Shown: positions 6,196-45,255, numbered from the stretch's first letter. The stretch is DNA of 64,000 bases from Bacteroidia bacterium (GCA_026391255.1 JAPLDU010000096.1:3777-67776); one strand, 5' to 3'. The notes: a model not told the origin generated them from the sequence alone. Made by a program: numbers and translations.

Positions 6196-6850
6196 TTATA
6201 AATTATTTGAGATAGAATTTCTGCAAAAAAAGCCATTTAGGAGGGAATATGCAAATTGTGGGATGGGGCGGTCGTGTGCAATAATATTATTTGGTTAGCA
6301 TTAGTGTCAAAATTATTTAGTGTTTGTCCATAAAGTCAGTACTTTTGATTTACGAATATCGATTAACGAACTATGATTTTAGAAGTAACTGATAATCTGA
6401 AATCTAAAATCGTTAATCCTTGTTCTTAAATCAGTTTCATTGACTTTAAAGACAGACTCTATTTAGTTTATAATTGTATTGAGAATTATATATGATAGTT
6501 TCATGTTTTACTCCTTTGTGTGTTATTTCATTATATTTAAGATAGATACATTCGGCAAGACAGACTGTCCTGAAGGGAATTATTTAAAAATTTTATCATC
6601 TGGTTTTATCGTTAACATATCCTCATTTTTAGTAGAGATTTGAAATGCATCTCAAGACAAGGTATGTTAAGTACTTATATAATAGGCATAATTGAAATTT
6701 AAAGGAAGTAAAATTTCGTGTCTGCTCCAGTAATTCATAAAAAAGCTGAAAAAATATTTGTATCTTGAAAACCTTATTACAAAAATTCTTACCTTTGACT
6801 GAATTTTATAACTTTCGGAAATTAGAAAATGGCACTTTAATAAAACTGAT

Positions 6851-9022
6851 ATGAATACAATCAATATTGAAGAGTTTAATTCTTTTATTGAGGTGGCGAC
6901 AAAAATAGGATTGCCTTTTGGATTATATACGACTAGTATTGAAGGAGTTCTTCTTACTCATAATAAGTATTTTGCTGATTTACTAAAACCCACAATATTT
7001 AAAAATGGTGAAACAAATGTAATTGATTTATTTCAAAATCCTGAAGATCGAATAAAAAGAATAGAATGGTTCAAAAATCCCGATAATCAGGGCAAATGGA
7101 ATGTTGATATATTATTTCTTAAAAATTGTAACGAAGAGATAATTTTAAAAGATGCTTGTTCTCCAATAATATCTAAGGATGGACAAACATTTTGTTTTTT
7201 CGGTCTTCTTATTGATATAAAAAATGAATATCTCTATGGACGACTATTTGAAAATTTACCAATTGGCGTTTATCAATTAGACAGTAATAATAAATTTGTG
7301 AAGGCTAATAAAGCACTCCATGAAATGCTTAAATATGATGATGAAGAATTAATTGGAAAGGATGTCAGAGATATTTATATTGATCCAAAAGTACTAGATG
7401 ACGTAACGGATGCTATTAAATCAGATCCTTTTTATATTATTAACCAAAATGTTGAATTGATTGATAAAAATTTTAAAAGAGTCTGGGTTTCATTAAACTC
7501 ATATAAAATTCCAAAATGTGGTGGTTGGTATTTTGGTAGAGAGGGAACTGCAATTGAAAAAACAGAAGAAGTACTAAGAAATAAACTTCTTTTTAATGTA
7601 CCTGTTGGATTCTATATCGTTCAAAGAGAGAATGATAATGATTTAGTTGAACATTGTAATGATCAGTTTGCAAAAATATTTGGATATAATGATGCAAAAG
7701 AAGTAATTGGAAAAAACCCATTAGTTTTTTTTAATAATATAGCGGAATACAAGAAATATATAGCCGCAATACATGCTGCTGATAAAAACAAGGAACCATT
7801 ATGGGGTCATGTTTTCATTGGGAGAAAGAAAAACGGTGACACTTTCGCTTCTGAGATTAATAGCCAATTTATTCATGATGCTTATGATAATATTACTGGG
7901 AGAGTCGGCGTTGTCAGGGATATTTCGAGAGAAAATACTCTGAGGGAGAAAATAAATGAAATCACATCTGATATTGGTGCTGTAATGCATACATATTCTA
8001 CTGTTTTAATTCAAATTAGGAATTATTTAGAGGCAATAATTCAATGTAATGGTAATGACCCTTTTAATTTAAAAAAGCAAATAGATTATCAAGAAACAAT
8101 ATCTCAAGTTGAGAAATATAGGACTGTTCTTTCAAAGTCGATAGATAATCTTGTTATACAATTAAAAAGGAAAGAAATATCGATTAATTTTCCTGAAAAA
8201 ATAATTCAATCAATATGCGATAAAAGTGAAGTGTTAAAATCATTAAAGACAGAAAAGATTGAAAAACTTAAAATTCCATTATTAAGGTACGTCGCATATG
8301 ATTTAAATGAGATTATCGGTAAAAAGGAATTTACCGGAATTTCACGAGATGACTTGAAGCAAATAAAAAGTAATATTAATGATGTTTTGCGAATATCATG
8401 TTTCATTGCTATACATCAAATAAATGATACTATTGTTGATCTTGAACGTCAAGTAAGAAATTTTAGAGAATTTGTTACTGATGAACAACGTGAAAAGCCT
8501 AAGCCTACAAATGAGGATATTTGTTTTCTTGTAAGACATGTTGCTTTTGATTTTATGGAATACGCCAATAGAAAAAATATAGAAATTCGATGTAATATTC
8601 CGGAGGGACCAATAAAACTATTTGTTATTAAAAATGATATTATTAGAGCATTGACGAATATTCTTCATAATGCAATCAAATATTCATATTCAAGAAATAC
8701 CAAAAATAGTTGGATTCAAATAGAAGTTAAGAAAGATGATATTAATTTAATAATTTCTTTTGAAAACTATGGGGTCCCGATTGATAAGGAAGAAATTGTC
8801 CAAGGCTTTATATTTAAAATGGGATATAGAGGAATATATTCGGGAGAATATGGAAGAACAGGTACTGGATTTGGTATGAATGATACATACAATATTGTGA
8901 AGAGTTGTAAAGGTGAGTTAATTGTTGATAGTAGACCTGCTGATTCGTTTGCAAAACAGGATAATTACAATCAACCATTTCTTACAACTGTTTCCATTAA
9001 ATTAAATTTAATAAATAATTAA
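6851..9022 (+). CDS. soluble multi-PAS sensor histidine kinase (divergent)
   Basis: It has no TM segment. PAS-like modules are present (LFENLPIGVYQLDSNNKFVKANKALHEMLKYDDEELIGKDV; LLFNVPVGFYIVQ...FGYNDAKEVIGKNP...GRVGVVRDISRE). It has an H-box-like HTYSTVL (His codon 7988-7990), an N box (NILHNAIKYS) and a G2 box (GTGFGMN). The G1 box is degenerate (ENYG). The gene is very AT-rich. Confidence 0.75.
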   Translation: MNTINIEEFNSFIEVATKIGLPFGLYTTSIEGVLLTHNKYFADLLKPTIFKNGETNVIDLFQNPEDRIKRIEWFKNPDNQGKWNVDILFLKNCNEEIILKDACSPIISKDGQTFCFFGLLIDIKNEYLYGRLFENLPIGVYQLDSNNKFVKANKALHEMLKYDDEELIGKDVRDIYIDPKVLDDVTDAIKSDPFYIINQNVELIDKNFKRVWVSLNSYKIPKCGGWYFGREGTAIEKTEEVLRNKLLFNVPVGFYIVQRENDNDLVEHCNDQFAKIFGYNDAKEVIGKNPLVFFNNIAEYKKYIAAIHAADKNKEPLWGHVFIGRKKNGDTFASEINSQFIHDAYDNITGRVGVVRDISRENTLREKINEITSDIGAVMHTYSTVLIQIRNYLEAIIQCNGNDPFNLKKQIDYQETISQVEKYRTVLSKSIDNLVIQLKRKEISINFPEKIIQSICDKSEVLKSLKTEKIEKLKIPLLRYVAYDLNEIIGKKEFTGISRDDLKQIKSNINDVLRISCFIAIHQINDTIVDLERQVRNFREFVTDEQREKPKPTNEDICFLVRHVAFDFMEYANRKNIEIRCNIPEGPIKLFVIKNDIIRALTNILHNAIKYSYSRNTKNSWIQIEVKKDDINLIISFENYGVPIDKEEIVQGFIFKMGYRGIYSGEYGRTGTGFGMNDTYNIVKSCKGELIVDSRPADSFAKQDNYNQPFLTTVSIKLNLINN

Positions 9023-9026
9023 TAAA

Positions 9027-9515
9027 ATGATGAAGATTAGAGTTTTGTGGATAGAGGATCAGGCAATTAGTATGCTTGAAGAATATTGTGCTAAAGTCAT
9101 TAATGATGGCAAATATTCATTAAAATTTGTACTAAATGCATCAGAAGGAATTAAAAATATTCAAGAGAATATTTTTGATATAGTTATTATTGATATACGC
9201 CTTGAACCTGGATCTGATACAGCATGGAAAACATGTATTTTAAAACATGGTGGAGATAAAAAAAAGGCACGGCTAGGTATGGAATTATTAAAATTATTAT
9301 TTATGCCTCATATTGCAGAAGTTGAAATTCCGGGATTTAAAAAACCATATTGGGTTAGACCAGAAATATTTGGTGTTTTGACTGTTGAAAGCAGAAATGA
9401 AGTAGATAGAGAATTAAGTGAAATGAAAATTAATTCCTATAAAAGAAAAATTATTGAAGCTGGTGCATCTGTATTAATTGATCTTATTGAAGAGATTATT
9501 AATTTGAATAAATAA
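9027..9515 (+). CDS. stand-alone receiver (REC) domain protein with no output domain
   Basis: It has the acidic pair in IRVLWIEDQ, a phospho-acceptor-like Asp in DIVIIDIRL (codon 9192-9194), and the conserved T in GVLTVES. It starts 4 nt after the kinase stop. Confidence 0.65.
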   Translation: MMKIRVLWIEDQAISMLEEYCAKVINDGKYSLKFVLNASEGIKNIQENIFDIVIIDIRLEPGSDTAWKTCILKHGGDKKKARLGMELLKLLFMPHIAEVEIPGFKKPYWVRPEIFGVLTVESRNEVDRELSEMKINSYKRKIIEAGASVLIDLIEEIINLNK

Positions 9516-9517
9516 TT

Positions 9518-10636
9518 ATGGAATTTCCTCAATTATCAGAAACCTGGGCTGGTGCGTATATTCAAATATTAGTTGCAGTATTAATATTTTTTGTTGGCTT
9601 GCCTCTTTTAATAACACAACTAAGTATGCCTGAAGATATAAGGAGAATATATTTTCGGTACCAAAAAAAATGGATTATTCTTATAATAATTATAACTATT
9701 ATTTCTGCTATTTTGTTGATTTGGTATGTTCATCCTTGCCCAGGCATAATATCTTCATTTGAAAAAAGTATAATAATTTCTGTATTAGTGACTATCATAT
9801 TATCAAGCTTTTTATATATTTATTGGAAATTGTATAATCAAAATAGACTAACTTTAATTAATAATATATTTATAAATTGCCTTGTTAATGGTGGACTAAA
9901 TCAAGCTTTTAAGGATCTTGCGTATTTAGGTGAATGCGGAAAACAAGGGGATGAAAAATATCTTGTAGTCAAAAAGATTTCTGATATCACAAAAATAATT
10001 ATTAAAAAACAAATTTACCATTATCATATGTTTGATCATATTATTGATGCTGTAAGGAAAACTGTAATTAATAGATTTCAATCTGGAAATGAAGATAATT
10101 TTAGATCAGTTTTATATTTGTTGAATGAAATACATGAATATTATATATTAAACCTTCCAGAATCTCAATATGATAAAAGATCTGTTGATAAAGTAATCGG
10201 AGAATTATGTATTAAATGTCTAAACCTCGGATTTATTGAAACGGCAATACTTTATCAGCAGGTTATGAAAGAAGATACAAATGAACTACTAAAAATTGGA
10301 ATTACAGCAATTCAATTGAAAAAATACAATCTTGCTGTAGCATGCCTTAATGATATTGAATCAAATGTTGTTAATATACTGGAAGATAATAATATATTGC
10401 GTGAGAAAGATTTATTTCAATTAATAGGTTTAGCTGCACATATTTGGGCAATTAATGCTGTTTCACATGATCGTGTTTTAAAGGCATTTAATTTGTTTAA
10501 TAATATTAATATATCTATAAGCAATTGTTTAGAATCTGCTAAAAAAGAGTATTCAAGTATTCAAGATTATAGCACTGCTCAACAAATTAATAATTTATTA
10601 CACAGCGAAGTATTTAGAGAAAATTTACAATTATAA
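9518..10636 (+). CDS. 3-TM membrane protein with a roughly 250-aa cytoplasmic helical-repeat region, family not recognised
   Basis: Three N-terminal hydrophobic helices are present (YIQILVAVLIFFVGLPLLI; WIILIIIITIISAILLIWYV; IIISVLVTIILSSFLYIYW). The remainder looks helical. It starts 2 nt after the receiver stop and has the same low-GC composition. Confidence 0.55.
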   Translation: MEFPQLSETWAGAYIQILVAVLIFFVGLPLLITQLSMPEDIRRIYFRYQKKWIILIIIITIISAILLIWYVHPCPGIISSFEKSIIISVLVTIILSSFLYIYWKLYNQNRLTLINNIFINCLVNGGLNQAFKDLAYLGECGKQGDEKYLVVKKISDITKIIIKKQIYHYHMFDHIIDAVRKTVINRFQSGNEDNFRSVLYLLNEIHEYYILNLPESQYDKRSVDKVIGELCIKCLNLGFIETAILYQQVMKEDTNELLKIGITAIQLKKYNLAVACLNDIESNVVNILEDNNILREKDLFQLIGLAAHIWAINAVSHDRVLKAFNLFNNINISISNCLESAKKEYSSIQDYSTAQQINNLLHSEVFRENLQL

Positions 10637-10673
10637 CTTCAAAATATATTACAAATATTTCGAAAGTTATAAA
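10631..10673 (+). terminator. imperfect hairpin overlapping the cassette stop codon (ttataactt ... aagttataa)
   Basis: ttataacttc-aaaatatattacaaatattt-cgaaagttataa. A 9-10-bp AT-rich stem flanks a roughly 20-nt loop and no clean T-tract follows. Confidence 0.3.
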
Positions 10674-10778
10674 TTACAATCAATAGTAATCATTATTAAT
10701 AGGTCTTTCTATTTTCCAAATGTTTTTCAAATTTTTATGAAAAGTCGGGGTCGACCAGGAAATATTACTCTTTTAAAT

Positions 10779-10970: not shown

Positions 10971-13130
10971 GTGATCATTCTGCCTGTGCTTTATGAATTG
11001 GGATATACCAATATTGATATTGTACGTAGTAAAATGTTGCAACACCCGTTCCTGAAGATAGGCTCGCAAAAGAGACAGGTCAACATTGTTCCGGATTACC
11101 TGTTGAAGGTAGGCGACAATTATGCCTGGGTGCTTGATGCAAAAGCGCCGGATGAGGACATCAAAACTGGTTACAATGTTGAACAGGTTTTCAGCTATGC
11201 CATTCACCCCGAAATTCGTACCAGGTATTTTGCATTATGTAATGGCCGTGAGTTTGCACTTTACCGTCAGGACACTGAAAGGCCGGTACTTTTCTTCAAT
11301 ATGCAGGACGTCGGCAGCTATTGGGGAAATCTTGAAACATACCTGTCACCCGGTTCATTCCAGGAAGGCAAAAAACCAGTATTTGAATTAGTTGAAAAGT
11401 ACAGAAAAAAATATGATAATTTCGATTATATCAACAGGCCATTACTTGATGAAATACCTGTTCGAAAAAGAGCGGCAAAGAGGCACTTCGGAGTGCACGG
11501 TTACTTCACCAAACAAGCTTGGAATGTTGTCCGGGAATATATATTAAATTTTTCTAAGCCTGGGGACATTGTATTTGATCCTTTCGGAGGAAGTGGTGTA
11601 ACACTTGTAGAAGCCTTAATGACTGACCGGCAAGGTATACATATCGATTTAAATCCTATGTCAATATTTATAGTTGATAGCTTAATTGCACCTGTTAATA
11701 TTCCTGAATTGAATAATGCTTTTGACAGGATAAAAAATCGCTTCCAAAAACTCAAACCTGAAACAAAGGAAGAAATTGATAAAGCCTTATCAAAATATCC
11801 TTATCCACAGGGGTATACCCTTCCAAAAGGTTCTGATGTAGAAACCATTGAACAATTGTTTACAAATGAACAATTAGCAAATCTATCATTAATTAAGTAC
11901 CTGATTAAAAATGAAAAAAATGAAAATTTAAGAAAAACCCTGTTATTAGCTTTTTCAACAACAATCACGAAAATTAATAGAACATATCACAACTCAGATT
12001 ATGCCAGTGAAAATGCTGGTGATTGTGCAGCATTTCGTTATTACCGATACAGAATTGCTACAGAACCAGTTAATTTAAATATATGGGATACATTTGAAGG
12101 AAAATTCTGGAAAATTGTCAATGCAAAGAAAGATATAGCTCCAAAGATCAATGAAGACACTATTTCCAATGCACAGGTTTATAAAGGAACGGCCACAAAT
12201 TTAAAGGAAATTAAAACAGAAAGCATTGATTACATTTATACCGATCCGCCTTATGGTTCAAAGATACCATACCTTGATCTGTCGGTAATGTGGAATGCCT
12301 GGCTCGGGCTTGAGGTAACCGAGCAGGACAGGGAGCTTGAGGCAATTGAAGGCGGTGAAATGCACAAAACAAAAGACGATTACAGCGACCTGATCTCAAA
12401 ATCCATTATGGAATGTTACCGGGTGCTGAAGTTCGATCGCTGGATGAGTTTTGTATTTGCACATAAGGACCCGGAGTTCTGGCACCTGATCATCGAAACT
12501 GCCGAGCGCGCAGGCTTTGAATATGCCGGTGCGGTGAAGCAGGCAAACGGACAGACCAGTTTCAAGAAGCGCCAGAATCCTTTTACAGTTCTTGCCGGGC
12601 AATTGATCATCAATTTTAAGAAAGTGCGCAAACCGAAGGCAATTCTCAGGGCCAATCTGGGCATGAATATCGGCGATATTGTACTCGAAACCATCGAAGG
12701 AGTAATAGCTAAACATAATGGCGCAACACTGGAACAGATCAATGACGAGCTCATTATTAAAGGACTTGAGCTTGGCTTTCTCGATCTTCTCAAAAAAGAA
12801 TACTCCGACCTCACATCCATACTGATGTCAGAGTTTGATTACAATACAGAAACAGAACAATTCATGATCCGTAAGAACATGAAATTCAAGACTTCCATTG
12901 ACCTGAACCTGCGTGTTAAATATTATCTGATGTCGTACCTGCGGAGGCAGGAAATCGAAAATAAAACTCCCACCTTTGACGAGATAGTCCTGAACATCCT
13001 GCCACTTTTACGGAACGGAACCACCCCGGAACATCAGACTATTCTGAATGTTCTCGAAGCCATAGGCGAACATATAGGGAAAGACCGGTGGAAACTGAAG
13101 AGCGAAGAAGCGCAATTGAAGTTGTTTTGA
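10971..13130 (+). CDS. fusion of an HsdR-N-like PD-(D/E)xK nuclease domain with an N6/N4 DNA methyltransferase (single-polypeptide RM-like enzyme)
   Basis: Nuclease motif: P41-D42 (11091-11096) and D56-A57-K58 (11136-11144), in VPDYLL...VLDAKAP. Methylase motif I is FDPFGGSG (11574-11597), preceded by HGYFTKQ. Motif IV is DPPY (12243-12254). Motif I precedes motif IV with about 220 aa between them. Confidence 0.8.
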   Translation: MIILPVLYELGYTNIDIVRSKMLQHPFLKIGSQKRQVNIVPDYLLKVGDNYAWVLDAKAPDEDIKTGYNVEQVFSYAIHPEIRTRYFALCNGREFALYRQDTERPVLFFNMQDVGSYWGNLETYLSPGSFQEGKKPVFELVEKYRKKYDNFDYINRPLLDEIPVRKRAAKRHFGVHGYFTKQAWNVVREYILNFSKPGDIVFDPFGGSGVTLVEALMTDRQGIHIDLNPMSIFIVDSLIAPVNIPELNNAFDRIKNRFQKLKPETKEEIDKALSKYPYPQGYTLPKGSDVETIEQLFTNEQLANLSLIKYLIKNEKNENLRKTLLLAFSTTITKINRTYHNSDYASENAGDCAAFRYYRYRIATEPVNLNIWDTFEGKFWKIVNAKKDIAPKINEDTISNAQVYKGTATNLKEIKTESIDYIYTDPPYGSKIPYLDLSVMWNAWLGLEVTEQDRELEAIEGGEMHKTKDDYSDLISKSIMECYRVLKFDRWMSFVFAHKDPEFWHLIIETAERAGFEYAGAVKQANGQTSFKKRQNPFTVLAGQLIINFKKVRKPKAILRANLGMNIGDIVLETIEGVIAKHNGATLEQINDELIIKGLELGFLDLLKKEYSDLTSILMSEFDYNTETEQFMIRKNMKFKTSIDLNLRVKYYLMSYLRRQEIENKTPTFDEIVLNILPLLRNGTTPEHQTILNVLEAIGEHIGKDRWKLKSEEAQLKLF

Positions 13131-17790: not shown

Positions 17791-17854
17791 TCATAATAAA
17801 CAAAAAATACTTACCAAATTGGTAAATTTATTTTATTAGTTGTATTTTTGCATC

Positions 17855-18154
17855 ATGAGAATTATTGCTTTCAGGAGGATAAAAGAATTTTGGGAACACC
17901 CAGAATATACTGATTCTGAGGTATCATTACGAGCATGGTATCATGATGTCAAAAATGCAGATTGGGAAAATTCAAACGGACTTAAACAGCAATACGTAAA
18001 CGCTAGTATAATAGGAGAAGTCAGGGTTGTTTTCAATATCAAAGGTAACTGCTACAGGCTGGTTGTTGCTATAGATTATGAATTTCAGATCATATTTATC
18101 CGGTTTATCGGTACACATAAACAATATATTAAAATTGATGCTAAAACTATATAA
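17855..18154 (+). CDS. higB: HigB-family type II toxin (mRNA interferase)
   Basis: MRIIAFRRIKEFWEHPEYTDSEVSLRAWYHDVKNADWENSNGLKQQYVNASII...CYRLVVAIDYEFQIIFIRFIGTHKQY. The ATG at 17855 is preferred over the upstream TTG. Confidence 0.8.
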   Translation: MRIIAFRRIKEFWEHPEYTDSEVSLRAWYHDVKNADWENSNGLKQQYVNASIIGEVRVVFNIKGNCYRLVVAIDYEFQIIFIRFIGTHKQYIKIDAKTI

Positions 18155-18156
18155 TA

Positions 18157-18507
18157 ATGGAAATCAAACCTATAAAAACAGATAAGGACTACAACGAAGC
18201 GATTAAAAAAATTGAAATGTTGTGGGGCGCAAAGAAAAACACATTAAAGGGTGATGAATTAGATTTGCTTTGCACCTTAGTAGAAGCTTATGAAATGAAA
18301 CATTTTCCTGTATTACCTCCAGACCCTGTTGACGCTATTAAATTCAGAATGGAGCAAATGAATATGACAAAAACAGATATGGCGAAATACCTTGGTAGTC
18401 AAAGCAGAGTAAGCGAAGTATTAAATGGGAAAAGGCATTTGACTTTGAAAATGGTAAAATCATTGTACAAAGGATTAAAAATACCTGCAGAGATATTGCT
18501 GGCATAA
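18157..18507 (+). CDS. higA: HigA-family antitoxin (XRE HTH)
   Basis: The HTH is MTKTDMAKYLGSQSRVSEVLNGKRHLTLKMVKSL. It starts 3 nt after the higB stop. Confidence 0.85.
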   Translation: MEIKPIKTDKDYNEAIKKIEMLWGAKKNTLKGDELDLLCTLVEAYEMKHFPVLPPDPVDAIKFRMEQMNMTKTDMAKYLGSQSRVSEVLNGKRHLTLKMVKSLYKGLKIPAEILLA

Positions 18508-18524
18508 AATTGAAATATTTTAAG

Positions 18525-18712
18525 TACAAGAAATTACAAATTTCAATCCGCCAAGGCGGAACAAATAACAAATAAATATCAATCGAAAAAATGACAAATT
18601 CAAAATAGCTTGTTTCGTATTTGAAAATTTGAAATTATTTGTTTTTTGTAATTTGTATTTTGGATTTTTTTTACAAAACACGTCAAGATTTCAGAATTAA
18701 GATATTTAAATC
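18525..18712 (+). repeat. about 200-bp palindromic intergenic element (family P), copy 1, lacking the left terminus
   Basis: acaagaaattacaaat...caaataaatatcaatcgaaaaaatgacaaattcaaa...tttgaaaatttgaaattatttgttttttgtaatttg...cacgtcaagatttcagaattaag aligns with copies at 42093, 54971 and 60858. Confidence 0.8.
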
Positions 18713-18737
18713 TAAAAGCCTAAAATCAATATTTCAG

Positions 18738-20132
18738 ATGGGAGTTTACGGGTCAGTAAAATTTAAATCAGTATGGATATTCATTTTGTTCATATCTTTT
18801 GGACTGGTTGTTTATGGGCAAAAGAAAGATTTAAATGCCCTGCTTCTCAATGCTGCCTTTGATGATAAGCTTACACTGGCCGACAGTCTTTTGAAAGCCG
18901 GGGCAGATGTAAATACCATTTCAGTCGAGGGAATTACTTCCTTGATGTATGCTGCACAAAGTGGCGATACCAACTTGGTCATATTGTTTATTAATTATAA
19001 TGCCCTCATTAATGCAAAACCATTTGACGGTGTATCTGCATTGATCGCAGCCGTCAGAAGTAATAAACCGGCAGCAGCGGAATTGCTGTTAAGAAATAGT
19101 GCAGAGATTAATGAAATGGACTATTATGGATGTTCCGCATTAATGTATGCATCGGCATTTGGTCTTGATACTATGGCCGATATGCTCATGTATTATGATG
19201 CAGATGTGAATATCCGCTCATCAGTTGACAGTTCATCGGCATTGAACATGGCTGCACTTACTGCTAACGTTGCTATTGCTCAGAATCTTCTTGATCATGG
19301 GGCCGATGTTAATTCAGCAGATCTTTTTGGTTATACTCCTCTGATGATTGCCATACAGAATAATGATACAGCAATGGTCAGCCTTTTTTTGAATCACAAA
19401 GCTGATGTAAATAAATTCAACTCGGTTGGCTATAATGCATTGCATATTGCCTCAGAAAAAGGATTCGCCGATATTGTTTCGAGGCTGATTACCAAGGGTG
19501 CCGATCCCCATCAGCCATCCCGGGCAGGCATGCTTCCACGTGAGATTGCAAGCATGAATGAGAACTATGATGTGGTAACTGTCCTAAAAAAAAACGGCGC
19601 CGGTTTTGATTACCGCCCCCGGTTTAATAAGCTGGTATTTTCGTTTGACGGTGATTTCAACCTGAAAGATGTTTTTTTGGGTGGTTATGCAGGAATTAAC
19701 GAAGTGAATTACAATACTCTGTTCTGCCTGGGGTTCCTGACACGTGCCGGTGCGCTTCCTGTACTGGTAAGAGATACACTGAACCATTACTATCAGTTTA
19801 TGGAAAACCGTTCCTTCTTCTACGCTGGTGTCGTGAAATATATTAACATCCGCAGAAAAAATAATATTGCTGAAGGTATTTCGATCGGCGCCAGGGAATT
19901 GTTTACTTATGGCAGTTACCACGGGACATACCAGATGCCGGCAAGTATTTTCCTTTTTTCCCCTCAGCTGGGATTATATGTTAAATGGAAACATTTTGGG
20001 ACTGAGTTAAAATATGAATACGTTGATTTTAAGATTGATAAATCATCTCCCCACCGGATAGGACTAAATCTCTGGTTTGCCGTTAATATTTTCAGGAAAA
20101 AGAACAGGGATAAAGTGATTGACTGGGTTTAG
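18738..20132 (+). CDS. secreted ankyrin-repeat protein with a non-ankyrin C-terminal domain
   Basis: A signal peptide follows the ATG at 18738 (MGVYGSVKFKSVWIFILFISFGLVVYG). There are about 7 ANK repeats (e.g. GITSLMYAAQSGDTNLVILFINYNALINA, GYTPLMIAIQNNDTAMVSLFLNHKADVN). The last roughly 170 aa are rich in aromatic residues and Gly, and could form beta strands. Confidence 0.75.
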   Translation: MGVYGSVKFKSVWIFILFISFGLVVYGQKKDLNALLLNAAFDDKLTLADSLLKAGADVNTISVEGITSLMYAAQSGDTNLVILFINYNALINAKPFDGVSALIAAVRSNKPAAAELLLRNSAEINEMDYYGCSALMYASAFGLDTMADMLMYYDADVNIRSSVDSSSALNMAALTANVAIAQNLLDHGADVNSADLFGYTPLMIAIQNNDTAMVSLFLNHKADVNKFNSVGYNALHIASEKGFADIVSRLITKGADPHQPSRAGMLPREIASMNENYDVVTVLKKNGAGFDYRPRFNKLVFSFDGDFNLKDVFLGGYAGINEVNYNTLFCLGFLTRAGALPVLVRDTLNHYYQFMENRSFFYAGVVKYINIRRKNNIAEGISIGARELFTYGSYHGTYQMPASIFLFSPQLGLYVKWKHFGTELKYEYVDFKIDKSSPHRIGLNLWFAVNIFRKKNRDKVIDWV

Positions 20133-20289: not shown

Positions 20290-23200
20290 TCAAATTATAT
20301 TTCCTTCGGATTTCCTCAGTTTTTCAAGATGTTCTTTTTTTGCCTGGTCACGTAACCTGCGTGCTGTTTCGGTATGATACGAATGCTTCTCGATAAATTT
20401 TATCTGAGTTTTGTTCCATTCTTCCAGTGATTTCACCTTTTTCCTTTCGGATAATTCAAGGAAAAGGTTTTTAGAATGAACTTCAAAATCTTCCCGGCCT
20501 AAATAATCCAGGTCCGAATCACAGAGTATCTGTTCCAATTTGTTGACGGGTTTGGGCGGAAAACGTGTTGACATGATCAGTTCCCCTATTTTACTTATCT
20601 GTTCCTTGGTATACTGGTAAGCAGGTAAAATTTCCCCTGCCATTTTTACTCCGAAAATTTCGTGTTTGTCATAAGCTATGCTAAATCCCATATCATGAAA
20701 TAATGCGGCAGTTTTTAATATCAATTTATCTTCTTCGCTGATATTCTCAGCCTCACCGATATATTCCACCTGAATCCCCACATCAATGGTATGTTCAACA
20801 CTATGATAGTAAAGGTTCTCAGGGAGTTCCTTCCTCATCTTTTCCAGCATTTTCTCTTTCAGGTCTTCAAAGCGCAACATAGCCATCATTGTATTGAACT
20901 TCTGATTGGGTGCAATAGGTCCTAAGCCGGAATCAATAAGATCAGGTCTTATTCCTTTTACAAAGTACATATCAATGAATCCCTTGTACTTTACTGATAT
21001 TTTACCTCTTGGTTCACATATGAAATAGTTTTTAACCAGCTCATATGTTGAATCTGAAATGTTGATCTCCCCACTTTCACATAATGATTCCATACGATTG
21101 GCTGTGTTTACCGTGACGCCATAAATATCATAAAGGTATTTTTTCCTGCCGATAACACCGGCTATTACACTTCCGGAATGTACACCGATACGCAAACCCC
21201 AGCCCTGAAATTTTCCTTTGTCATCAAAACTGAAAGTCCTGACAAAGATTTGCAGCTCAAGGGCAGCAAGCACAATGTCAACCGGATTGGTACTGTTCTT
21301 TTCCGGGACTCCGCCTGCGCACATATACCCGTCGCCAATGGTTTTAATCTTCTCAATATTATATTTCTCAATGATCAGGTCGAACTGGTAAAATAGCTCA
21401 TCCAGCCTTTCTACCAGAATATCGGGGTTGAGTTCCTGTGATATTTTTGTAAATCCCTGAATATCAGAAAATAATACGGTTACAAGGTCGAATTTTATCG
21501 TAGATGCCTTTCCTTTAAGTTTTAATTCCTGTGCAGTCTGATTGGGCAACATGTTCACCAGAAGATCTTCTGCACGTTCATTTTCCTTCAGCAGTTCTTC
21601 GGTTCTTTCCCGGATGATGGTCTCAAGATTGGCTTTTACCTTTGCAAACTGGTAAGTTCGAATCTTAATAACCATTAGCACGAATGAAATTAGCAGGATT
21701 AAATAAATCAGATATGCCCAGATGCTACGATAATAGGGTGGTTTGATGATAAAGTGGAAAACAGCTTCATCTGTAAGTTGTCCATAAATGTCGCTCGCTT
21801 TTACCCTGAAAACGTATTTTCCTTCAGACAAAGACGTGTATTCTTTTACATTACGGGTACTCCAGTCTGACCAGCTCTTATCGTAATTTTCAAGCAAATA
21901 CTGGTACTGAATATCATTTTCGCTTTCATAATAAGGAGCAGCAAATTCAAACAGTATTGAAGACAGGTTGTGAGTTAAGGTAACTACACTTTTGTAATTA
22001 TTGATGATATTGTCGCCTAATACATTTAATATTACCGCATTAGAAAAAAATGAAGAGTCTTTACTGGTCACTATCCTACTGATAAAACAGGGGATATCTA
22101 AATTTGTGTCCTTTCTCATTTGCTGATAATCAAGCCTGACAAGCCCTTCATCACCACCAAACCAAACAATTTGCGAATCAGGGAAAATTGTTTCGACGCT
22201 GAAATCTTTCAGTTTGACTTCCGGCAAGGTTATTATTTTGTATTTTTTTCCTGTTCCGGCATATTCCGCGATACCTGTCTTTTTATCGTATTTGTAAGAC
22301 ATGGCGTAACTAAACCAGATGTTTTTTCTTGAATCTTCTGCTAAAGGAAATATCCGGTAATCCAGGTTTTTTTGTTCAGGATTGAGTAAACTGTCGGGAA
22401 AGAACCATGCTTTGTTTTCATCATAGGTATAAAGACCTTTAGGGGTAGAAAAAATAACTCCGGATGATGTACGGTAAACATCATTACCATGTTCATCGGA
22501 AGGTAAACCGGCTGAGTTCATATATTGTCTTACCGTATTATTGATCTGGTAACCCCTTGAGCAATCTACCCTGAATACACCGTTATAATCTGTTCCAAGC
22601 CATAAGTTACCATTCGATGTTTCTGCAATGGTTCTCACTTCACAATTCACACCACGCAATCTTCCGAGAGTTTCCCATTTTGTTCCCAATAGCCTGAATG
22701 CCTGCAGTCCGTTATCATCAACCGAATAAATTATTCCGGGAAATAACCTGGATGCAAGGATAGATCTGACTTTTTTGCCATAAACCTGTCTGACTTTTTT
22801 CTGGTCAGCCTGGAATATTCCTTTGCTTGAAGTGATATACAACTGGTCTGAGATAATATAAAAATGATAACATTCGGCATTAATTCCTGAAACAGCTTTG
22901 AATGTTTTTTCGTTTCTGAAAGTATTGCCTGAAAGATCATAGATATTTTCGTCAGAATGTACTGAAACACCATGATTTGTAGCAATAAATATATTATCAT
23001 GCCAACGTATTATAGATGATATGCTACCTTTTATCCCATAATTTTTATCAAAAAAAGTAAATCTCGAAAGGTACTCTATCCTGCTGATGCCATTATTTAA
23101 AGTCACCCACAGATTTCCGGCCTGATCAATAAACATGGATGTTACAGCATCATCATAAAGGCCGTTTTGTTTATTCAGATTAGAGATCAGATGTCCAAGG

Positions 23201-24117
23201 GCATCGATAAAAACGATACCTCCGCGTTTAGTTCCCAGGGCATAATATCCACCACTCAGGTACAAGCCACAAACCAATTCATTTTTCTCAATAAACTCAT
23301 CCACATCTGTGTGAATTATGTTGAATTTATTCCTTGAAAATTGCACCAGGCTCTTTTGACCCTTAATCTTGATAAGGAATTCGTCATCACCTGAAGGTAA
23401 TATCTCAGATATCTGCTTGCCTTTGAACTTATCGCCATTCACCATCAGGTTAAAATGCCCCTGGTCGTATATCATAAGACCTTTTTCGGGATTATTCAGA
23501 AAAACACGGGGGTTGCTGTTTTTTCCATCAGAGTTGCTAACTTTTAATAAGGAATAGGTGGAATCAATTTTTGAAATTACTTCGAATACATCGTCAGAAT
23601 ACCGGTACAACCTGTCTGCTGTTGAGAATAATACCTCCTTGTTTATACAGATTATTTTATCAATCTGCCCAAAATTGCGCAAAGGAGGCTCAATCCTGGT
23701 ATAAAGTGAGTTTAAAAATGTATTGTTCTTCGAATAATAATCCAAGTAACCAAACTCATTGCGTCCTCCGGCATATACCCGTCCATGCCTGTCCACATCA
23801 AGAACAGGATGACCTTTCATGTTGATCAGTTTCCAGTTTACACCGTTGAATTCAAGAATACCATTCATGTTTCCGAAATAGAGAATAAAACGTGCATCCT
23901 GAGTAACAGAAAAGTTCTGGCTTTCATATCCGTATTCTCGAGGGCTGATATTTTGAACATAGGGTTTTCCCGTTTCTGAATGTTGGCAAAATGAGTAATT
24001 ATCAATGATGCAGATAATTAAAGAAAGCAGGACTAATTTGTTAAAATAATTCGTCAATTTATGAAGATAATATTTGGTCATGTTTAAAATTTGTCTTATT
24101 TTCAAACGGTCATTCAA
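20290..24117 (-). CDS. periplasmic beta-propeller/Y_Y_Y sensor fused to a class III adenylate/guanylate cyclase and an HD phosphohydrolase domain
   Basis: It has an N-terminal anchor and a long propeller-repeat region. The Y_Y_Y region is YQYLLENYDKSWSDW...GKYVFRVKA and the TM helix is IWAYLIYLILLISFVLMVIKI. Cyclase motifs are VTVLFSDIQGFTKIS and KTIGDGYMCAGG. The HD motif is HSVEHTIDV...AALFHDMGF. Confidence 0.8.
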   Translation of the reverse strand: MNDRLKIRQILNMTKYYLHKLTNYFNKLVLLSLIICIIDNYSFCQHSETGKPYVQNISPREYGYESQNFSVTQDARFILYFGNMNGILEFNGVNWKLINMKGHPVLDVDRHGRVYAGGRNEFGYLDYYSKNNTFLNSLYTRIEPPLRNFGQIDKIICINKEVLFSTADRLYRYSDDVFEVISKIDSTYSLLKVSNSDGKNSNPRVFLNNPEKGLMIYDQGHFNLMVNGDKFKGKQISEILPSGDDEFLIKIKGQKSLVQFSRNKFNIIHTDVDEFIEKNELVCGLYLSGGYYALGTKRGGIVFIDALGHLISNLNKQNGLYDDAVTSMFIDQAGNLWVTLNNGISRIEYLSRFTFFDKNYGIKGSISSIIRWHDNIFIATNHGVSVHSDENIYDLSGNTFRNEKTFKAVSGINAECYHFYIISDQLYITSSKGIFQADQKKVRQVYGKKVRSILASRLFPGIIYSVDDNGLQAFRLLGTKWETLGRLRGVNCEVRTIAETSNGNLWLGTDYNGVFRVDCSRGYQINNTVRQYMNSAGLPSDEHGNDVYRTSSGVIFSTPKGLYTYDENKAWFFPDSLLNPEQKNLDYRIFPLAEDSRKNIWFSYAMSYKYDKKTGIAEYAGTGKKYKIITLPEVKLKDFSVETIFPDSQIVWFGGDEGLVRLDYQQMRKDTNLDIPCFISRIVTSKDSSFFSNAVILNVLGDNIINNYKSVVTLTHNLSSILFEFAAPYYESENDIQYQYLLENYDKSWSDWSTRNVKEYTSLSEGKYVFRVKASDIYGQLTDEAVFHFIIKPPYYRSIWAYLIYLILLISFVLMVIKIRTYQFAKVKANLETIIRERTEELLKENERAEDLLVNMLPNQTAQELKLKGKASTIKFDLVTVLFSDIQGFTKISQELNPDILVERLDELFYQFDLIIEKYNIEKIKTIGDGYMCAGGVPEKNSTNPVDIVLAALELQIFVRTFSFDDKGKFQGWGLRIGVHSGSVIAGVIGRKKYLYDIYGVTVNTANRMESLCESGEINISDSTYELVKNYFICEPRGKISVKYKGFIDMYFVKGIRPDLIDSGLGPIAPNQKFNTMMAMLRFEDLKEKMLEKMRKELPENLYYHSVEHTIDVGIQVEYIGEAENISEEDKLILKTAALFHDMGFSIAYDKHEIFGVKMAGEILPAYQYTKEQISKIGELIMSTRFPPKPVNKLEQILCDSDLDYLGREDFEVHSKNLFLELSERKKVKSLEEWNKTQIKFIEKHSYHTETARRLRDQAKKEHLEKLRKSEGNII

Positions 24118-43872: not shown

Positions 43873-45012
43873 TCAATTTACCTCTAAATCTTCCGAATGA
43901 TGAGGCATGAACCATTTTTGAGCAACAAATGTAGGTATTACGGCGCTTGCAACAACAACGCCAACTAAAACCGAATATTGAACCTGATTTATTAAACCAG
44001 CCTGAAGCCCGTACAAACTTGAGATTGTTCCAAAGGTCAGACCAGTACTCATAAGAAGAGTAGTGTAAATACTTCCGTTCGGAATAAATTTTTTTGCAAA
44101 AAAGAATACACCAATAAATTTTGCAACGATTTTAACTGAAAACAAAATTACAAACAATCCTATAGCAGTTATAATAAATGGAAGTGATATTTTCATCCCA
44201 CCCACAATAAAAAATATGGGTGTAATAATAGCATAGGCAACCGTTCGCAATTTATCCCGGACTGCAACTGTCTTACGTTGTTCTTTAAAATGCTTTGACA
44301 TTAATAAGCCTAAAATAAAAGCAGGTAAAACTGCCTGACCATCTCCGAGTTTTGCAAAATAAATAAACGCCAGTAATACTAAAAAGATAAATTTGATTTC
44401 CGGTTCAATAACTTTACCTGCCCATTGCTTGTTTCGTAAAACTACAAGTGAATATTTATAAACTAAAACTATCAGAATCGCCGAAACACCAATGAATACA
44501 AGCGTATAAAGGGTTGGTTTAATAAACAGGATACTTAAAGCAAGCGCAGTTCCCATATCTGTAATGAAAGTTGCCGACATGATTTTTTTCCCGATAATAT
44601 TTTTTGACAGACCTGTTTCAACAAGTACAGAATATACCACAGCCAGGGAAGTTGTGGATAATGCAACTCCTGCAATTAATGATCCCTGAAGCGTCCATTT
44701 TGATATTAAATATGTATAAAGAAATGTTGCGATAAAAGGTAACAGGAATGAAAAAAATCCAATAAGAAAACTTTCTTTAAAATTTACCCGCATCATTTTT
44801 GTATCAATTTCTGTTCCAGCCAGAAATGTAAGAATTATACCGCCAAAATTGGCTAAATACAACATCCAGTCTTCGGTATGTAATCCCAGATTTCCGGCAA
44901 TTACACCCAACACAATTTCAATGATTGCTACTGACAAACCAAGCCGAAGCGAAATAAGACTTGAGAGAAGAACCAGGCTACCAACTATTAATGGAATGAA
45001 ATCAGCATTCAT
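43873..45012 (-). CDS. cation:proton antiporter (Na+/H+ exchanger family)
   Basis: It is a 379-aa protein with about 11 TM helices and the overall pattern of the CPA family. Confidence 0.75.
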   Translation of the reverse strand: MNADFIPLIVGSLVLLSSLISLRLGLSVAIIEIVLGVIAGNLGLHTEDWMLYLANFGGIILTFLAGTEIDTKMMRVNFKESFLIGFFSFLLPFIATFLYTYLISKWTLQGSLIAGVALSTTSLAVVYSVLVETGLSKNIIGKKIMSATFITDMGTALALSILFIKPTLYTLVFIGVSAILIVLVYKYSLVVLRNKQWAGKVIEPEIKFIFLVLLAFIYFAKLGDGQAVLPAFILGLLMSKHFKEQRKTVAVRDKLRTVAYAIITPIFFIVGGMKISLPFIITAIGLFVILFSVKIVAKFIGVFFFAKKFIPNGSIYTTLLMSTGLTFGTISSLYGLQAGLINQVQYSVLVGVVVASAVIPTFVAQKWFMPHHSEDLEVN

Positions 45013-45255
45013 AATAACTCCTCTTTATGATCCAACATCAATTATTAAAGTAGGAGTTATCAGCCAATTTATGCGGTTACAGGCGAACTCCATCGCCTAA
45101 AGACTTTGCAAAAATAATTAAATTAGTTGAAAATGAAATCCCTTTCCGGGTCTATTCATAAACATTGCAAAGTCATGAATATCTTTTTCTCTTTTCCGGA
45201 TACCTGATTTCATTTCAAGTGACCCGTGACTTGTCACATGTCACTTTGAATTTAA

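What the first reader, a model, noticed from the sequence alone, without database searches (positions are those of the whole stretch)
6851..10636. Low-GC cassette of a soluble PAS histidine kinase, an output-less receiver and a 3-TM helical protein is a candidate undescribed two-component-based defence or abortive-infection module
Three ORFs are packed with 4-nt and 2-nt gaps, so they are almost certainly one operon. My hand GC counts on sampled 60-nt lines give roughly 23-32 percent inside the cassette, against roughly 35-60 percent in flanking genes, which argues for horizontal acquisition. The kinase has no membrane anchor. It has three PAS-like modules, an H-box-like HTYSTVL (His codon 7988-7990), an N box NILHNAIKYS, a G2 box GTGFGMN, and a degenerate G1 box. 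The 162-aa partner is a receiver (ED pair, Asp codon 9192-9194) with no DNA-binding or enzymatic output. The only candidate effector is the third protein, which has three N-terminal TM helices plus about 250 aa of helical repeats, and I recognise no family for it. The cassette sits directly beside a nuclease-methylase, three TA pairs and IS debris, which is a defence-island context. The logic resembles the published Detocs system (sensor kinase, buffer receiver, receiver-effector). However, the third protein here has no recognisable receiver domain and the kinase sensor is PAS rather than TPR, so it is not a straightforward member of that family.
Basis: partly seen in the sequence, partly recalled or inferred. 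Interest (0 to 1): 0.8.

Follow-up and report, generated by a model that had tools for sequence, protein, structure and literature searches.

The report
Mobile kinase–receiver–membrane protein cassette
Three tightly packed genes (a soluble sensor kinase, a bare receiver protein and a membrane-anchored helical-repeat protein from an undescribed family) form a cassette that recurs unchanged in unrelated bacteria, often next to anti-phage genes, so it is a credible but unproven new two-component-type conflict module.

Summary
ORFs 6851-9022 (K, 723 aa), 9027-9515 (R, 162 aa) and 9518-10636 (T, 372 aa) are separated by 4 and 2 nt. They have 27.6% GC against 38.8% for the rest of the window.

- **K** is a soluble kinase with three PAS domains. 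Its catalytic domain resembles HK853. His380 is invariant, but it lies outside a canonical H-box, and a three-helix insert splits the dimerisation hairpin.
- **R** is a divergent stand-alone receiver that keeps all the signature residues, including Asp56.
- **T** has three N-out/C-in membrane helices and a cytoplasmic TPR-like solenoid. It founds a family of at least 225 clusters with no Pfam, NCBIfam or PADLOC model and no natural relative in the PDB.

The K-R-T order is kept in all 16 distinct loci recovered, across roughly 28-63% GC. The three proteins co-diverge, and the cassette is usually lower in GC than its flanks. Known or candidate defence or mobile-element genes lie within 10 kb in 6 of 9 informative contexts.

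It is not Detocs: the sensor is not TPR-based and no receiver is fused to an effector. The likeliest working is a phosphorelay ending at the membrane protein. A defence role is plausible but not shown. I found no published description.

The parts
6781..6820 (.). Left arm of an imperfect 40-nt inverted repeat that brackets the cassette. It contains a Bacteroidetes-type -7 box, TAccTTTG, at 6791-6798, about 53 nt upstream of the K start codon.
   Evidence: 31 of 40 positions are complementary, and 0 of 200 shuffles reach that (maximum 27). The sequence was read. The promoter reading is inference from the known TAnnTTTG consensus. The repeat is not seen at other loci.
6851..9022 (+). K: soluble 723-aa PAS-PAS-PAS histidine kinase
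6851..7921 (+). Three PAS folds of K (aa 1-122, 124-236, 239-357)
   Evidence: Pfam PAS_9/PAS hits. AF2 secondary structure. Foldseek best matches are PAS kinases: NifL, WalK, YF1. K in L014 and L016 is shorter (525 and 537 aa), so the N-terminal sensor region is variable.
7925..8041 (+). Long helix aa 359-397 carrying the invariant His380 (codon 7988-7990). It is the presumed first helix of the dimerisation/phosphotransfer hairpin (DHp alpha-1).
   Evidence: His is invariant in all full-length homologues, in the motif G-x-[VI]-[LF]-H-x-[YFL]-[ST]-x-x-L. Helix from AF2. No HisKA match.
8087..8323 (+). Three-helix insert (aa 413-491) between the His helix and DHp alpha-2. This is atypical for histidine kinases.
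   Evidence: AF2. The family profile aligns to HK853 only from alpha-2 onwards, and the canonical H-box position has no conserved His.
8345..9007 (+). DHp alpha-2 (aa 499-544) and the catalytic ATP-binding domain (aa 553-719). The N, F and G2 boxes are present. The G1 Asp is replaced by Asn (ENYGVP).
   Evidence: Profile against PDB: HK853 at E 4e-22. Pfam HATPase_c. Alignment.
9027..9515 (+). R: 162-aa stand-alone divergent receiver. It has the acidic pair E10-D11, the phospho-acceptor Asp56 (codon 9192-9194), Thr119 and Lys141. The region after beta-3 is enlarged and conserved (PG..W...RLG).
9518..10636 (+). T: 372-aa membrane protein, founder of an unannotated family
9539..9835 (+). Three TM helices of T (aa 8-36, 39-70, 81-106) with N-out/C-in topology. 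The N-terminus plus TM1 (PQLSETW..Y.Q...F..G.P) is the most conserved part of the protein.
   Evidence: AF2. K+R counts per loop are 0.02 / 3.7 / 0.77 / 7.4, and conservation is 0.55-0.60 against 0.39 for the solenoid. Longer family members carry a long Pro/Ala/Ser/Thr-rich stretch in the TM2-TM3 loop.
9845..10627 (+). Cytoplasmic all-alpha TPR-like solenoid of T (aa 110-370)
   Evidence: AF2 pLDDT mostly above 90. Foldseek gives only weak TPR/SNAP/Sel1-type matches (E >= 2.6e-3, TM 0.2-0.3).
10658..10697 (.). Right arm of the bracketing inverted repeat, starting 22 nt after the T stop codon

Best explanation
The three genes are a self-contained, horizontally transferred phosphorelay cassette whose output is at the membrane, not at DNA.

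Proposed steps:
1. K is a cytoplasmic kinase that reads an intracellular cue through its PAS domains (inferred).
2. K autophosphorylates on the invariant His380 in an unusual, insert-bearing helical hairpin (inferred from conservation and the model).
3. K passes the phosphoryl group to Asp56 of the stand-alone receiver R (inferred from intact receiver chemistry).
4. R has no output domain, and the cassette works in unrelated phyla, so its partner must travel with it. That partner is T. Phospho-R most likely docks on T's cytoplasmic TPR-like solenoid and changes the state of T's three-helix membrane domain, for example its oligomerisation or permeability, or its contact with an envelope component (inferred).

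The biological role is most likely inter-genome conflict, meaning an abortive-infection-type or other anti-phage response. I infer this from the patchy distribution, the low GC, the signs of mobility and the frequent defence-island neighbours.

Shown here: the anatomy, the conservation of the triad as a unit, its mobility signals and its neighbourhoods. Inferred: the direction of signalling, the R-T contact, the membrane effect and the defence role.
For: Unit:
- R lies immediately upstream of T in 16 of 16 distinct loci, and K lies upstream of R in 14 of 14 loci where the contig reaches.
- Gene gaps range from -71 to +30 nt.
- The K, R and T distance matrices correlate at r = 0.73-0.86 (Mantel p = 2e-4).

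Chemistry:
- K's catalytic domain profile hits HK853 at E 4e-22.
- His380 is invariant.
- R keeps E10-D11, D56, T119 and K141 and hits receiver structures.
- K is soluble.

T:
- The AF2 model is confident (pLDDT 92.7): 3 TM helices plus a solenoid.
- Topology is N-out/C-in.
- No longer family member shows an enzyme domain.
- The family has 225 clusters at E < 1e-3 and no Pfam or PADLOC model.

Mobility:
- The triad has lower GC than its flanks in 7 of 8 long loci.
- In L014 it sits in an element with an integrase and an FtsK-type protein.
- In L013, 146-nt direct repeats bracket it.
- In the window, inverted repeats bracket it.
- The neighbourhoods differ at every locus.

Defence context:
- Window: methyltransferase, TA pairs similar to PD-Lambda-2 A/B, IS3.
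- L007: complete AbiEi/AbiEii.
- L014 and L016: type I RM.
- L004: GajB-like helicase.
- L013: PDC-M28B-like ParA-TPR protein and an LRR-Roc-COR protein.

Precedent: Detocs shows that two-component phosphotransfer can drive abortive infection, including with transmembrane effectors.
Against: - There is no phenotype and no biochemistry.
- Only nine informative contexts were recovered. Two are purely housekeeping: L019 (glycosidases, P-type ATPase) and L023 (MoxR/Bat operon, Mfd). L011/L032 has only Uma2 and a MazE-like gene.
- No background rate of defence neighbours was computed.
- No copy was found in plasmids, phages or viral contigs.
- T has no toxin or enzyme fold. Its best-conserved part is the outward-facing N-terminus and TM1, which is unusual for a non-specific pore and fits a sensor.
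- The G1-box Asp that contacts adenine is Asn in most members, so kinase activity is not certain.
- His380 is not in a recognised H-box, and that helix is modelled with low confidence (pLDDT about 57-63).
- An R-T contact was not tested.
Confidence: 0.4

Rival explanations
1. This is an accessory signalling module, not immunity. T is the membrane sensor or scaffold: its conserved outward-facing N-terminus, TM1 and TM2-TM3 loop read an envelope cue. T controls the soluble kinase K. R is a diffusible single-domain regulator or a phosphate sink acting on a conserved host target or back on T. The cassette tunes envelope or stress physiology and spreads as a niche-adaptation gene set. This would resemble three-component systems with an accessory membrane protein, such as LiaFSR or WalK-YycHI.
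For: - The N-terminus and TM1 of T are its most conserved part.
- T is a TPR-type scaffold without a catalytic fold.
- PAS kinases are typical physiological sensors, and K's nearest structures are NifL, WalK and LOV kinases.
- L019 and L023 have housekeeping neighbours.
- L007 and L011 have another histidine kinase next door.
- No PADLOC model matches R or T convincingly.
Against: - R has no output domain, and there is no DNA-binding partner in the cassette.
- A host-specific target is hard to reconcile with one cassette functioning across loci spanning about 28-63% GC.
- The low GC, the repeat-bracketed and integrase-linked copies, and the frequent RM/Abi/TA neighbours are more typical of conflict genes.
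- Occasional decay (an in-frame stop in L003, a split K in L031) fits dispensable accessory genes, but it does not separate the two readings.
Confidence: 0.35
2. The cassette is a divergent member of the Detocs family. K would correspond to DtcA and R to the DtcB buffer receiver. T would be a DtcC-type effector that has lost or hidden its receiver domain.
For: The layout is a three-gene kinase / lone receiver / third protein, and Detocs variants with transmembrane effectors exist.
Against: - K senses through PAS domains, not TPR.
- T is all-alpha with no receiver fold anywhere.
- No effector-fused receiver is present, so R would have to be the only acceptor rather than a buffer.
- The only PADLOC hits are generic ATPase-domain matches to PDC-M43B, plus E 0.02 to PDC-M60B.
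Confidence: 0.03
3. The cassette is a selfish addiction or toxin-antitoxin-like module. T would be a membrane toxin held in check by K/R phosphorylation, which stabilises the mobile DNA that carries it rather than defending the host.
For: - The cassette shows signs of mobility.
- It sits among TA loci in the window.
- T is a small membrane protein with tight translational coupling to R.
Against: - A 723-aa multi-PAS sensor kinase is elaborate for a simple addiction module.
- No plasmid or phage copies were found.
- T's 250-aa conserved solenoid is not typical of membrane toxins.
Confidence: 0.07

Closest known systems
Detocs (DtcA/DtcB/DtcC; Rousset et al. 2023, read)
   Same: It is a three-gene operon built on His-to-Asp phosphotransfer with a stand-alone receiver. 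It is used for conflict rather than transcription. Some Detocs variants have transmembrane effectors. It is found sporadically across phyla.
   Different: The Detocs kinase senses through N-terminal TPRs, whereas K uses three PAS domains. The Detocs effector is fused to its own receiver (DtcC) and the lone receiver is a buffer. Here there is only one receiver, and the third protein has no receiver and no enzymatic domain. The TPR-like repeats sit on the membrane protein, not on the kinase.
Three-component systems with an accessory membrane protein (LiaFSR, WalKR-YycHI; from general knowledge, and WalK-YycH appears among K's structural neighbours)
   Same: A kinase, a response regulator and a co-encoded membrane protein that has no enzymatic domain.
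   Different: Those kinases are themselves membrane proteins, their regulators bind DNA, and they are vertically inherited core genes. Here the kinase is soluble, the regulator has no output domain and the cassette is mobile.
Rap phosphatases acting on Spo0F (TPR proteins that bind a single-domain receiver; Rap structures are weak Foldseek hits)
   Same: A TPR-type solenoid paired with an output-less receiver. This offers a precedent for a direct solenoid-receiver contact.
   Different: Rap proteins are soluble and regulated by peptides. Similarity to T is only at the generic repeat level (TM-score about 0.2). T is membrane-anchored.
LapB/YciM-type membrane-anchored TPR scaffolds (weak Foldseek hits)
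   Same: An N-terminal membrane anchor followed by cytoplasmic TPR-like repeats that organise partner proteins at the inner membrane.
   Different: LapB has one TM helix and a rubredoxin domain and is a core envelope-biogenesis gene. There is no sequence relationship to T.

Membership tests
Detocs | Sensor kinase (DtcA) with an N-terminal TPR sensor | tested here: not met
   K has three PAS folds and no TPR (Pfam; AF2; Foldseek).
Detocs | Response regulator (DtcC) with a receiver fused to a cell-killing effector | tested here: not met
   T has no receiver domain. It is all-alpha with 3 TM helices plus a solenoid. None of 60 family members hits a receiver or effector family.
Detocs | Additional stand-alone receiver (DtcB) homologous to the Detocs profile | tested here: inconclusive
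   R is a stand-alone receiver, but it is the only receiver present. No DtcB-specific profile was available. The only PADLOC match is PDC-M60B at E 0.02.
Detocs | Protection against phage that depends on the His and Asp residues | not testable with these tools
   Needs an experiment.
Class I (HisKA-type) histidine kinase | GHKL catalytic domain with N, G1, F and G2 boxes | tested here: met
   The family profile hits HK853 at E 4e-22, and Pfam finds HATPase_c. The N, F and G2 boxes are conserved. The G1 Asp is Asn in 8 of 11 sequences, a deviation of unknown consequence.
Class I (HisKA-type) histidine kinase | Phospho-acceptor His in a recognisable H-box on DHp helix 1 | tested here: inconclusive
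   There is no HisKA hit, and the canonical position has no conserved His. An invariant His380 sits on the long helix after PAS3, separated from alpha-2 by a three-helix insert. That helix is modelled at pLDDT about 57-63.
CheY-like receiver superfamily | Acidic pair, phospho-acceptor Asp at the end of beta-3, conserved Thr/Ser and Lys | tested here: met
   E10, D11, D56 and K141 are invariant and T119 is conserved in at least 90% of 15 sequences. The profile hits receiver structures 4q7e (E 7e-6) and CheY (E 3e-5) with the Asp aligned. The single sequence is below the Pfam cut-off.
TPR superfamily (for T) | Tandem helix-turn-helix repeats recognisable by sequence or fold | tested here: inconclusive
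   No TPR Pfam hit in 60 members. Foldseek gives only weak TPR/SNAP/Sel1 matches (E >= 2.6e-3, TM 0.2-0.3). The sequence profile hits only designed helical repeats.
Any known or candidate defence system in PADLOC-DB v2.0.0 | Component proteins match the system's profiles | tested here: not met
   K matches only the ATPase part of PDC-M43B (E 1e-9). R matches PDC-M60B at E 0.02. T has no match. Among 60 T homologues there is one chance-level hit. DefenseFinder was not available.

The most novel reading that the evidence does not exclude
The triad is a new family of two-component-based abortive-infection or anti-phage systems, distinct from Detocs. A soluble PAS kinase detects infection. A free receiver carries the phosphoryl signal. 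The phosphorylated receiver then gates a dedicated membrane protein of a new fold family (3 TM helices plus a TPR-like solenoid), which collapses membrane function.
Probability: 0.3. Interest if true: 0.8.

Novelty: new variant of a known kind. Interest (0 to 1): 0.6.

Why it matters
If the cassette is a defence system, it would be a second, independent use of His-Asp phosphotransfer in bacterial immunity. The sensor logic differs from Detocs: PAS domains usually read small molecules, redox state or metabolic state. The effector would be controlled in trans by a free receiver. It would also give a function to a protein family of at least 225 clusters that currently has no annotation.

If it is not defence, it is still an unusual self-contained signalling unit. 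It would be a two-component system with no transcriptional output that ends on a membrane scaffold. Its kinase has a split dimerisation hairpin and an Asn in the adenine-contacting G1 position. Either way, the hypotheses are directly testable with three genes and two point mutants.

Tried and rejected
- A 60-sequence alignment of T was too diverse for the search for related loci. A 13-sequence alignment found only one locus among GTDB species representatives, nine in metagenomes and none in viral contigs. These scans depend on one short N-terminal peptide pattern, so the low counts are not prevalence estimates.
- tblastn of T against plasmids and phages found nothing.
- The word-indexed homologue search found almost nothing for T. 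The exhaustive HMMER search was needed.
- Looking up the flanking S46 peptidase, to test presence/absence among close strains and to identify the organism, failed because the exact product is not on record. The 'syntenic in relatives' refutation test therefore could not be run for the window's own lineage.
It succeeded after those sequences were registered through the listing of cluster members.
- Seven literature searches and three papers read gave no description of this triad. The receiver, HATPase and TPR abbreviations in the DefensePredictor figure legend could not be tied to this architecture.
- A conserved fourth gene was sought among flanking small ORFs and not found.
- The inverted repeat that brackets the window cassette is not present at seven other loci.
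- Rejected: Detocs membership (two defining features fail).
- Rejected: a LOV or haem-type cofactor assignment for the PAS domains (no supporting motif examined in depth).
- Rejected: reading the 'LGE.G..G.EK' motif of T as a P-loop (it lies in helix-turn-helix repeats of the model).


Full report
**1. The observation**

All are on the + strand, with gaps of 4 and 2 nt. GC in sliding windows is 0.24-0.32 from about 6250 to 10750 and 0.36-0.49 on both sides. Overall the triad is 0.276 and the rest of the window 0.388. Codon 7988-7990 is CAT (His380 of K) and codon 9192-9194 is GAT (Asp56 of R).

The flanks fit a Bacteroidota-like host; this is an inference from the families present. Upstream lie a family S46 peptidase and a protein with a T9SS sorting domain. 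Downstream lie the following:
- a 719-aa DNA methyltransferase with type II and PglX-like PADLOC matches
- a Gp49/HTH pair
- ParD
- an IS3 transposase
- a HigB/HigA pair that matches PD-Lambda-2 A/B

Only the 'nuclease' label on the methyltransferase was not checked.

**2. Anatomy of K**

Pfam finds PAS domains and HATPase_c but no HisKA. An AF2 model built from nine homologues (mean pLDDT 78) shows these elements:
- three PAS folds (aa 1-122, 124-236, 239-357)
- a long helix (aa 359-397)
- a disordered loop
- three shorter helices (aa 413-491)
- a second long helix (aa 499-544)
- an alpha/beta catalytic domain (aa 553-719)

The nearest solved structures are PAS kinases and relatives: NifL, WalK, the YF1 LOV-FixL chimeras, VicK and HK853 (E down to 3e-19). 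A profile of the C-terminal 360 residues hits HK853 at E 4e-22, but only from DHp helix 2 onwards. At the position where HK853 has its H-box, the family has no conserved His.

The only invariant His is His380, in the motif G-x-[VI]-[LF]-H-x-[YFL]-[ST]-x-x-L on the helix that leaves PAS3. It is present in every full-length homologue, and also in the upstream fragment of the L003 gene, which is interrupted by a stop codon. I read this as a dimerisation/phosphotransfer hairpin split by a helical insert of about 100 residues. The helix carrying His380 is modelled at only pLDDT about 57-63, as expected for a monomer model of a dimeric element.

The N, F and G2 boxes are conserved. The G1 Asp that contacts adenine in GHKL ATPases is Asn in 8 of 11 sequences and Asp in 3 of 11. 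K has no hydrophobic segment (maximum hydropathy 0.99). K in L014 and L016 is only 525-537 aa, whereas the C-terminal 360 residues are conserved. The sensor part is therefore the variable part.

**3. Anatomy of R**

As a single sequence, R is below Pfam's receiver threshold (E 0.003, N-terminal half only). In an alignment of 15 homologues, E10, D11, D56, P61, G62 and K141 are invariant, and T119 is conserved in at least 90%. These are the acidic pair, the phospho-acceptor, the Thr/Ser and the Lys of CheY-like receivers.

The family profile hits solved receivers with the phospho-Asp aligned: 4q7e at E 7e-6 and CheY at E 3e-5. The region after beta-3 is enlarged and conserved (PG..W...RLG). There is no output domain. 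R is a real, divergent, stand-alone receiver.

**4. Anatomy of T**

T has no match in Pfam, NCBIfam or PADLOC. The word-indexed search found only one fragment. The exhaustive HMMER search of 1.84 billion cluster representatives found 225 proteins at E < 1e-3 and 121 at E < 1e-10, most of them 370-400 aa and aligned end to end. Sixty of these, scanned individually, have no consistent Pfam or PADLOC family. The family profile has no natural relative among PDB sequences.

The AF2 model built on the 60-sequence alignment is confident (pLDDT 92.7, pTM 0.88). It shows three N-terminal helices (aa 8-36, 39-70, 81-106) followed by an all-alpha solenoid. Foldseek returns only weak, generic TPR/SNAP/Sel1-type matches in the PDB and BFVD (best E 2.6e-3, TM 0.2-0.3), including LGN, kinesin light chain, LapB, Rap and MamA.

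Mean Lys+Arg counts across the family are 0.02 (N-terminus), 3.7 (loop 1), 0.77 (loop 2) and 7.4 (after TM3). This gives an N-out/C-in topology with the solenoid in the cytoplasm. Longer family members differ by a long Pro/Ala/Ser/Thr-rich stretch between TM2 and TM3, or by an internal repeat duplication. None has gained an enzymatic domain.

The most conserved segment of the whole protein is the outward-facing N-terminus plus TM1 (PQL[ST]E.W...Y.Q...F..G.P). Its conservation is 0.55-0.60, against 0.39 for the solenoid.

**5. The triad is a unit**

Homologues of R and T were traced to their contigs. In all 16 distinct loci, R lies immediately upstream of T. K lies upstream of R in all 14 loci where the contig reaches that far. 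Gene gaps range from -71 to +30 nt. Pairwise distances of K, R and T across nine complete loci correlate at r = 0.73-0.86 (Mantel p = 2e-4). No fourth gene is conserved among the flanking ORFs.

The hosts are diverse. They include a Cloacimonetes MAG, a PVC-group bacterium and metagenomic contigs. Triad GC ranges from 0.28 to 0.63.

**6. Mobility**
- The triad is lower in GC than its flanks in 7 of 8 long loci, by up to 15 points.
- In L014 it lies downstream of an integrase, an FtsK/SpoIIIE protein and many small ORFs, and is followed by a type I RM system.
- In L013 a 146-nt direct repeat (96% identical) brackets a 5.3-kb segment holding the triad. This looks like the duplication left by site-specific insertion.
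- In the window an imperfect 40-nt inverted repeat brackets the cassette, with arms 30 nt before the K start and 22 nt after the T stop. It has 31 of 40 complementary positions, and 0 of 200 shuffles reach that. This repeat is not seen at other loci.
- In the PVC bacterium, 14 assemblies all break 38-63 nt upstream of K.
- Two copies are decaying: an in-frame stop in L003 and a split K in L031.
- No copy was found in plasmid, phage or IMG/VR collections.

**7. Neighbourhoods**

Of nine informative contexts, six have known or candidate defence or mobile-element genes within 10 kb:
- the window
- L007, with a complete AbiEi/AbiEii pair
- L014, with type I RM on an integrase-bearing element
- L016, with type I RM genes and RHH/HTH pairs
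- L004, with a helicase with GajB-like PADLOC matches and an unknown partner
- L013, with a ParA-TPR protein matching candidate PDC-M28B and an LRR-Roc-COR protein

L011/L032 has only Uma2 and a MazE-like gene. L019 and L023 are housekeeping. This is suggestive. But the sample is small, the choice of loci was not random, and no background rate was computed.

**8. How it most likely works**

The chemistry for a His-to-Asp transfer from K to R is intact apart from the G1 Asn. R has no output. The cassette functions as a portable unit in unrelated hosts, so R's partner should be inside the cassette, and that leaves T. T offers a large cytoplasmic repeat surface of the kind that binds proteins. 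Rap-Spo0F is a precedent for a TPR-type protein binding a single-domain receiver.

I therefore favour a relay from K through phospho-R to the T solenoid, which changes the state of T's membrane domain. The biological role would be in conflict, either abortive infection or exclusion. My confidence is 0.4.

The main rival (0.35) reverses the logic. T would be a membrane sensor or scaffold that controls K, and the module would be an accessory physiological signalling unit. The strong conservation of T's outward-facing N-terminus and TM1 favours a specific recognition role and weakens the picture of T as a simple pore. Both readings could be partly true.

**9. Comparison with known systems**

Detocs is the closest in concept. 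However, membership fails on two defining features: the kinase sensor is not TPR-based, and there is no receiver-effector fusion. The cassette works like a two-component system and may work like Detocs, but it is not a Detocs member.

It also differs from three-component envelope-stress systems. Here the kinase is soluble, the regulator has no DNA-binding domain, and the genes are mobile.

No PADLOC model (2023) or Pfam model (2025) covers T. The literature searches found no description. DefenseFinder and HHpred were not available.

**10. Verdict**

This is a real, conserved and undescribed three-gene module containing a new membrane-protein family. A defence function is plausible but unproven. 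Novelty: a new variant of a known kind (two-component-type module, possibly immune). Interest 0.6.

Noticed in passing
L013:6210-6355 and L013:11679-11824; arrays at L013:6347-6655 and 6881-7081: A 146-nt direct repeat (96% identical) brackets the triad-containing 5.3-kb segment. Inside the segment, upstream of K, are a tandem array of a 21-nt unit (about 14 copies, TTCGCAACCGCTACTTTG..) and three copies of a 67-nt unit. The direct repeat looks like an insertion duplication. The arrays are unexplained.
   Followed up: partly
window 6781-6820 and 10658-10697: An imperfect 40-nt inverted repeat (31 of 40 complementary; 0 of 200 shuffles reach this) brackets the cassette exactly. The left arm overlaps a TAccTTTG motif that resembles a Bacteroidetes -7 promoter box. 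It is absent from seven other loci.
   Followed up: partly
window 8765-8776 (K residues about 639-642, ENYG) and homologues: The G1-box Asp that contacts adenine in GHKL ATPases is Asn in 8 of 11 kinases of this family and Asp in 3. This could affect nucleotide affinity or specificity.
   Followed up: no
L003:2-1168 and L031:9592-11830: The kinase gene is interrupted in two homologous loci: by an in-frame stop in L003, and split into 134-aa and 609-aa ORFs in L031. This suggests occasional decay or sequencing errors.
   Followed up: no
L023-L030 (PVC-group bacterium): Fourteen independent assemblies carrying the same triad all end 38-63 nt upstream of the kinase start. This suggests a repeat or a strain-variable junction at that point.
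   Followed up: no
window 17840-18507: The HigB/HigA-like pair matches PADLOC PD-Lambda-2 A (E 2e-36) and the first 118 of 402 positions of PD-Lambda-2 B (E 3e-44). It could be a truncated or minimal relative of that defence system.
   Followed up: no
window 18639-20132: A 497-aa ankyrin-repeat protein matches the candidate defence protein PDC-M72A (E 4e-36), directly after the TA genes.
   Followed up: no
window 10971-13130: The 719-aa methyltransferase matches the central part of BREX PglX (E 9e-47) and many type II methyltransferase profiles. No cognate restriction gene was identified next to it.
   Followed up: no
window 20290-24117 (-): A 1275-aa protein combines Reg_prop/Y_Y_Y sensor repeats, an adenylate/guanylate cyclase domain and an HD domain. 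This is an unusual signalling architecture.
   Followed up: no
window 45044-45106 (-): A fluoride riboswitch (Rfam RF01734, 53 bits) lies upstream of the gene at 43873-45012.
   Followed up: no
JGI contig of P0006 (no DNA available): In one homologous locus, a gene of at least 816 aa starts one base after the T homologue. It could not be read, so a lineage-specific fourth component cannot be excluded.
   Followed up: no
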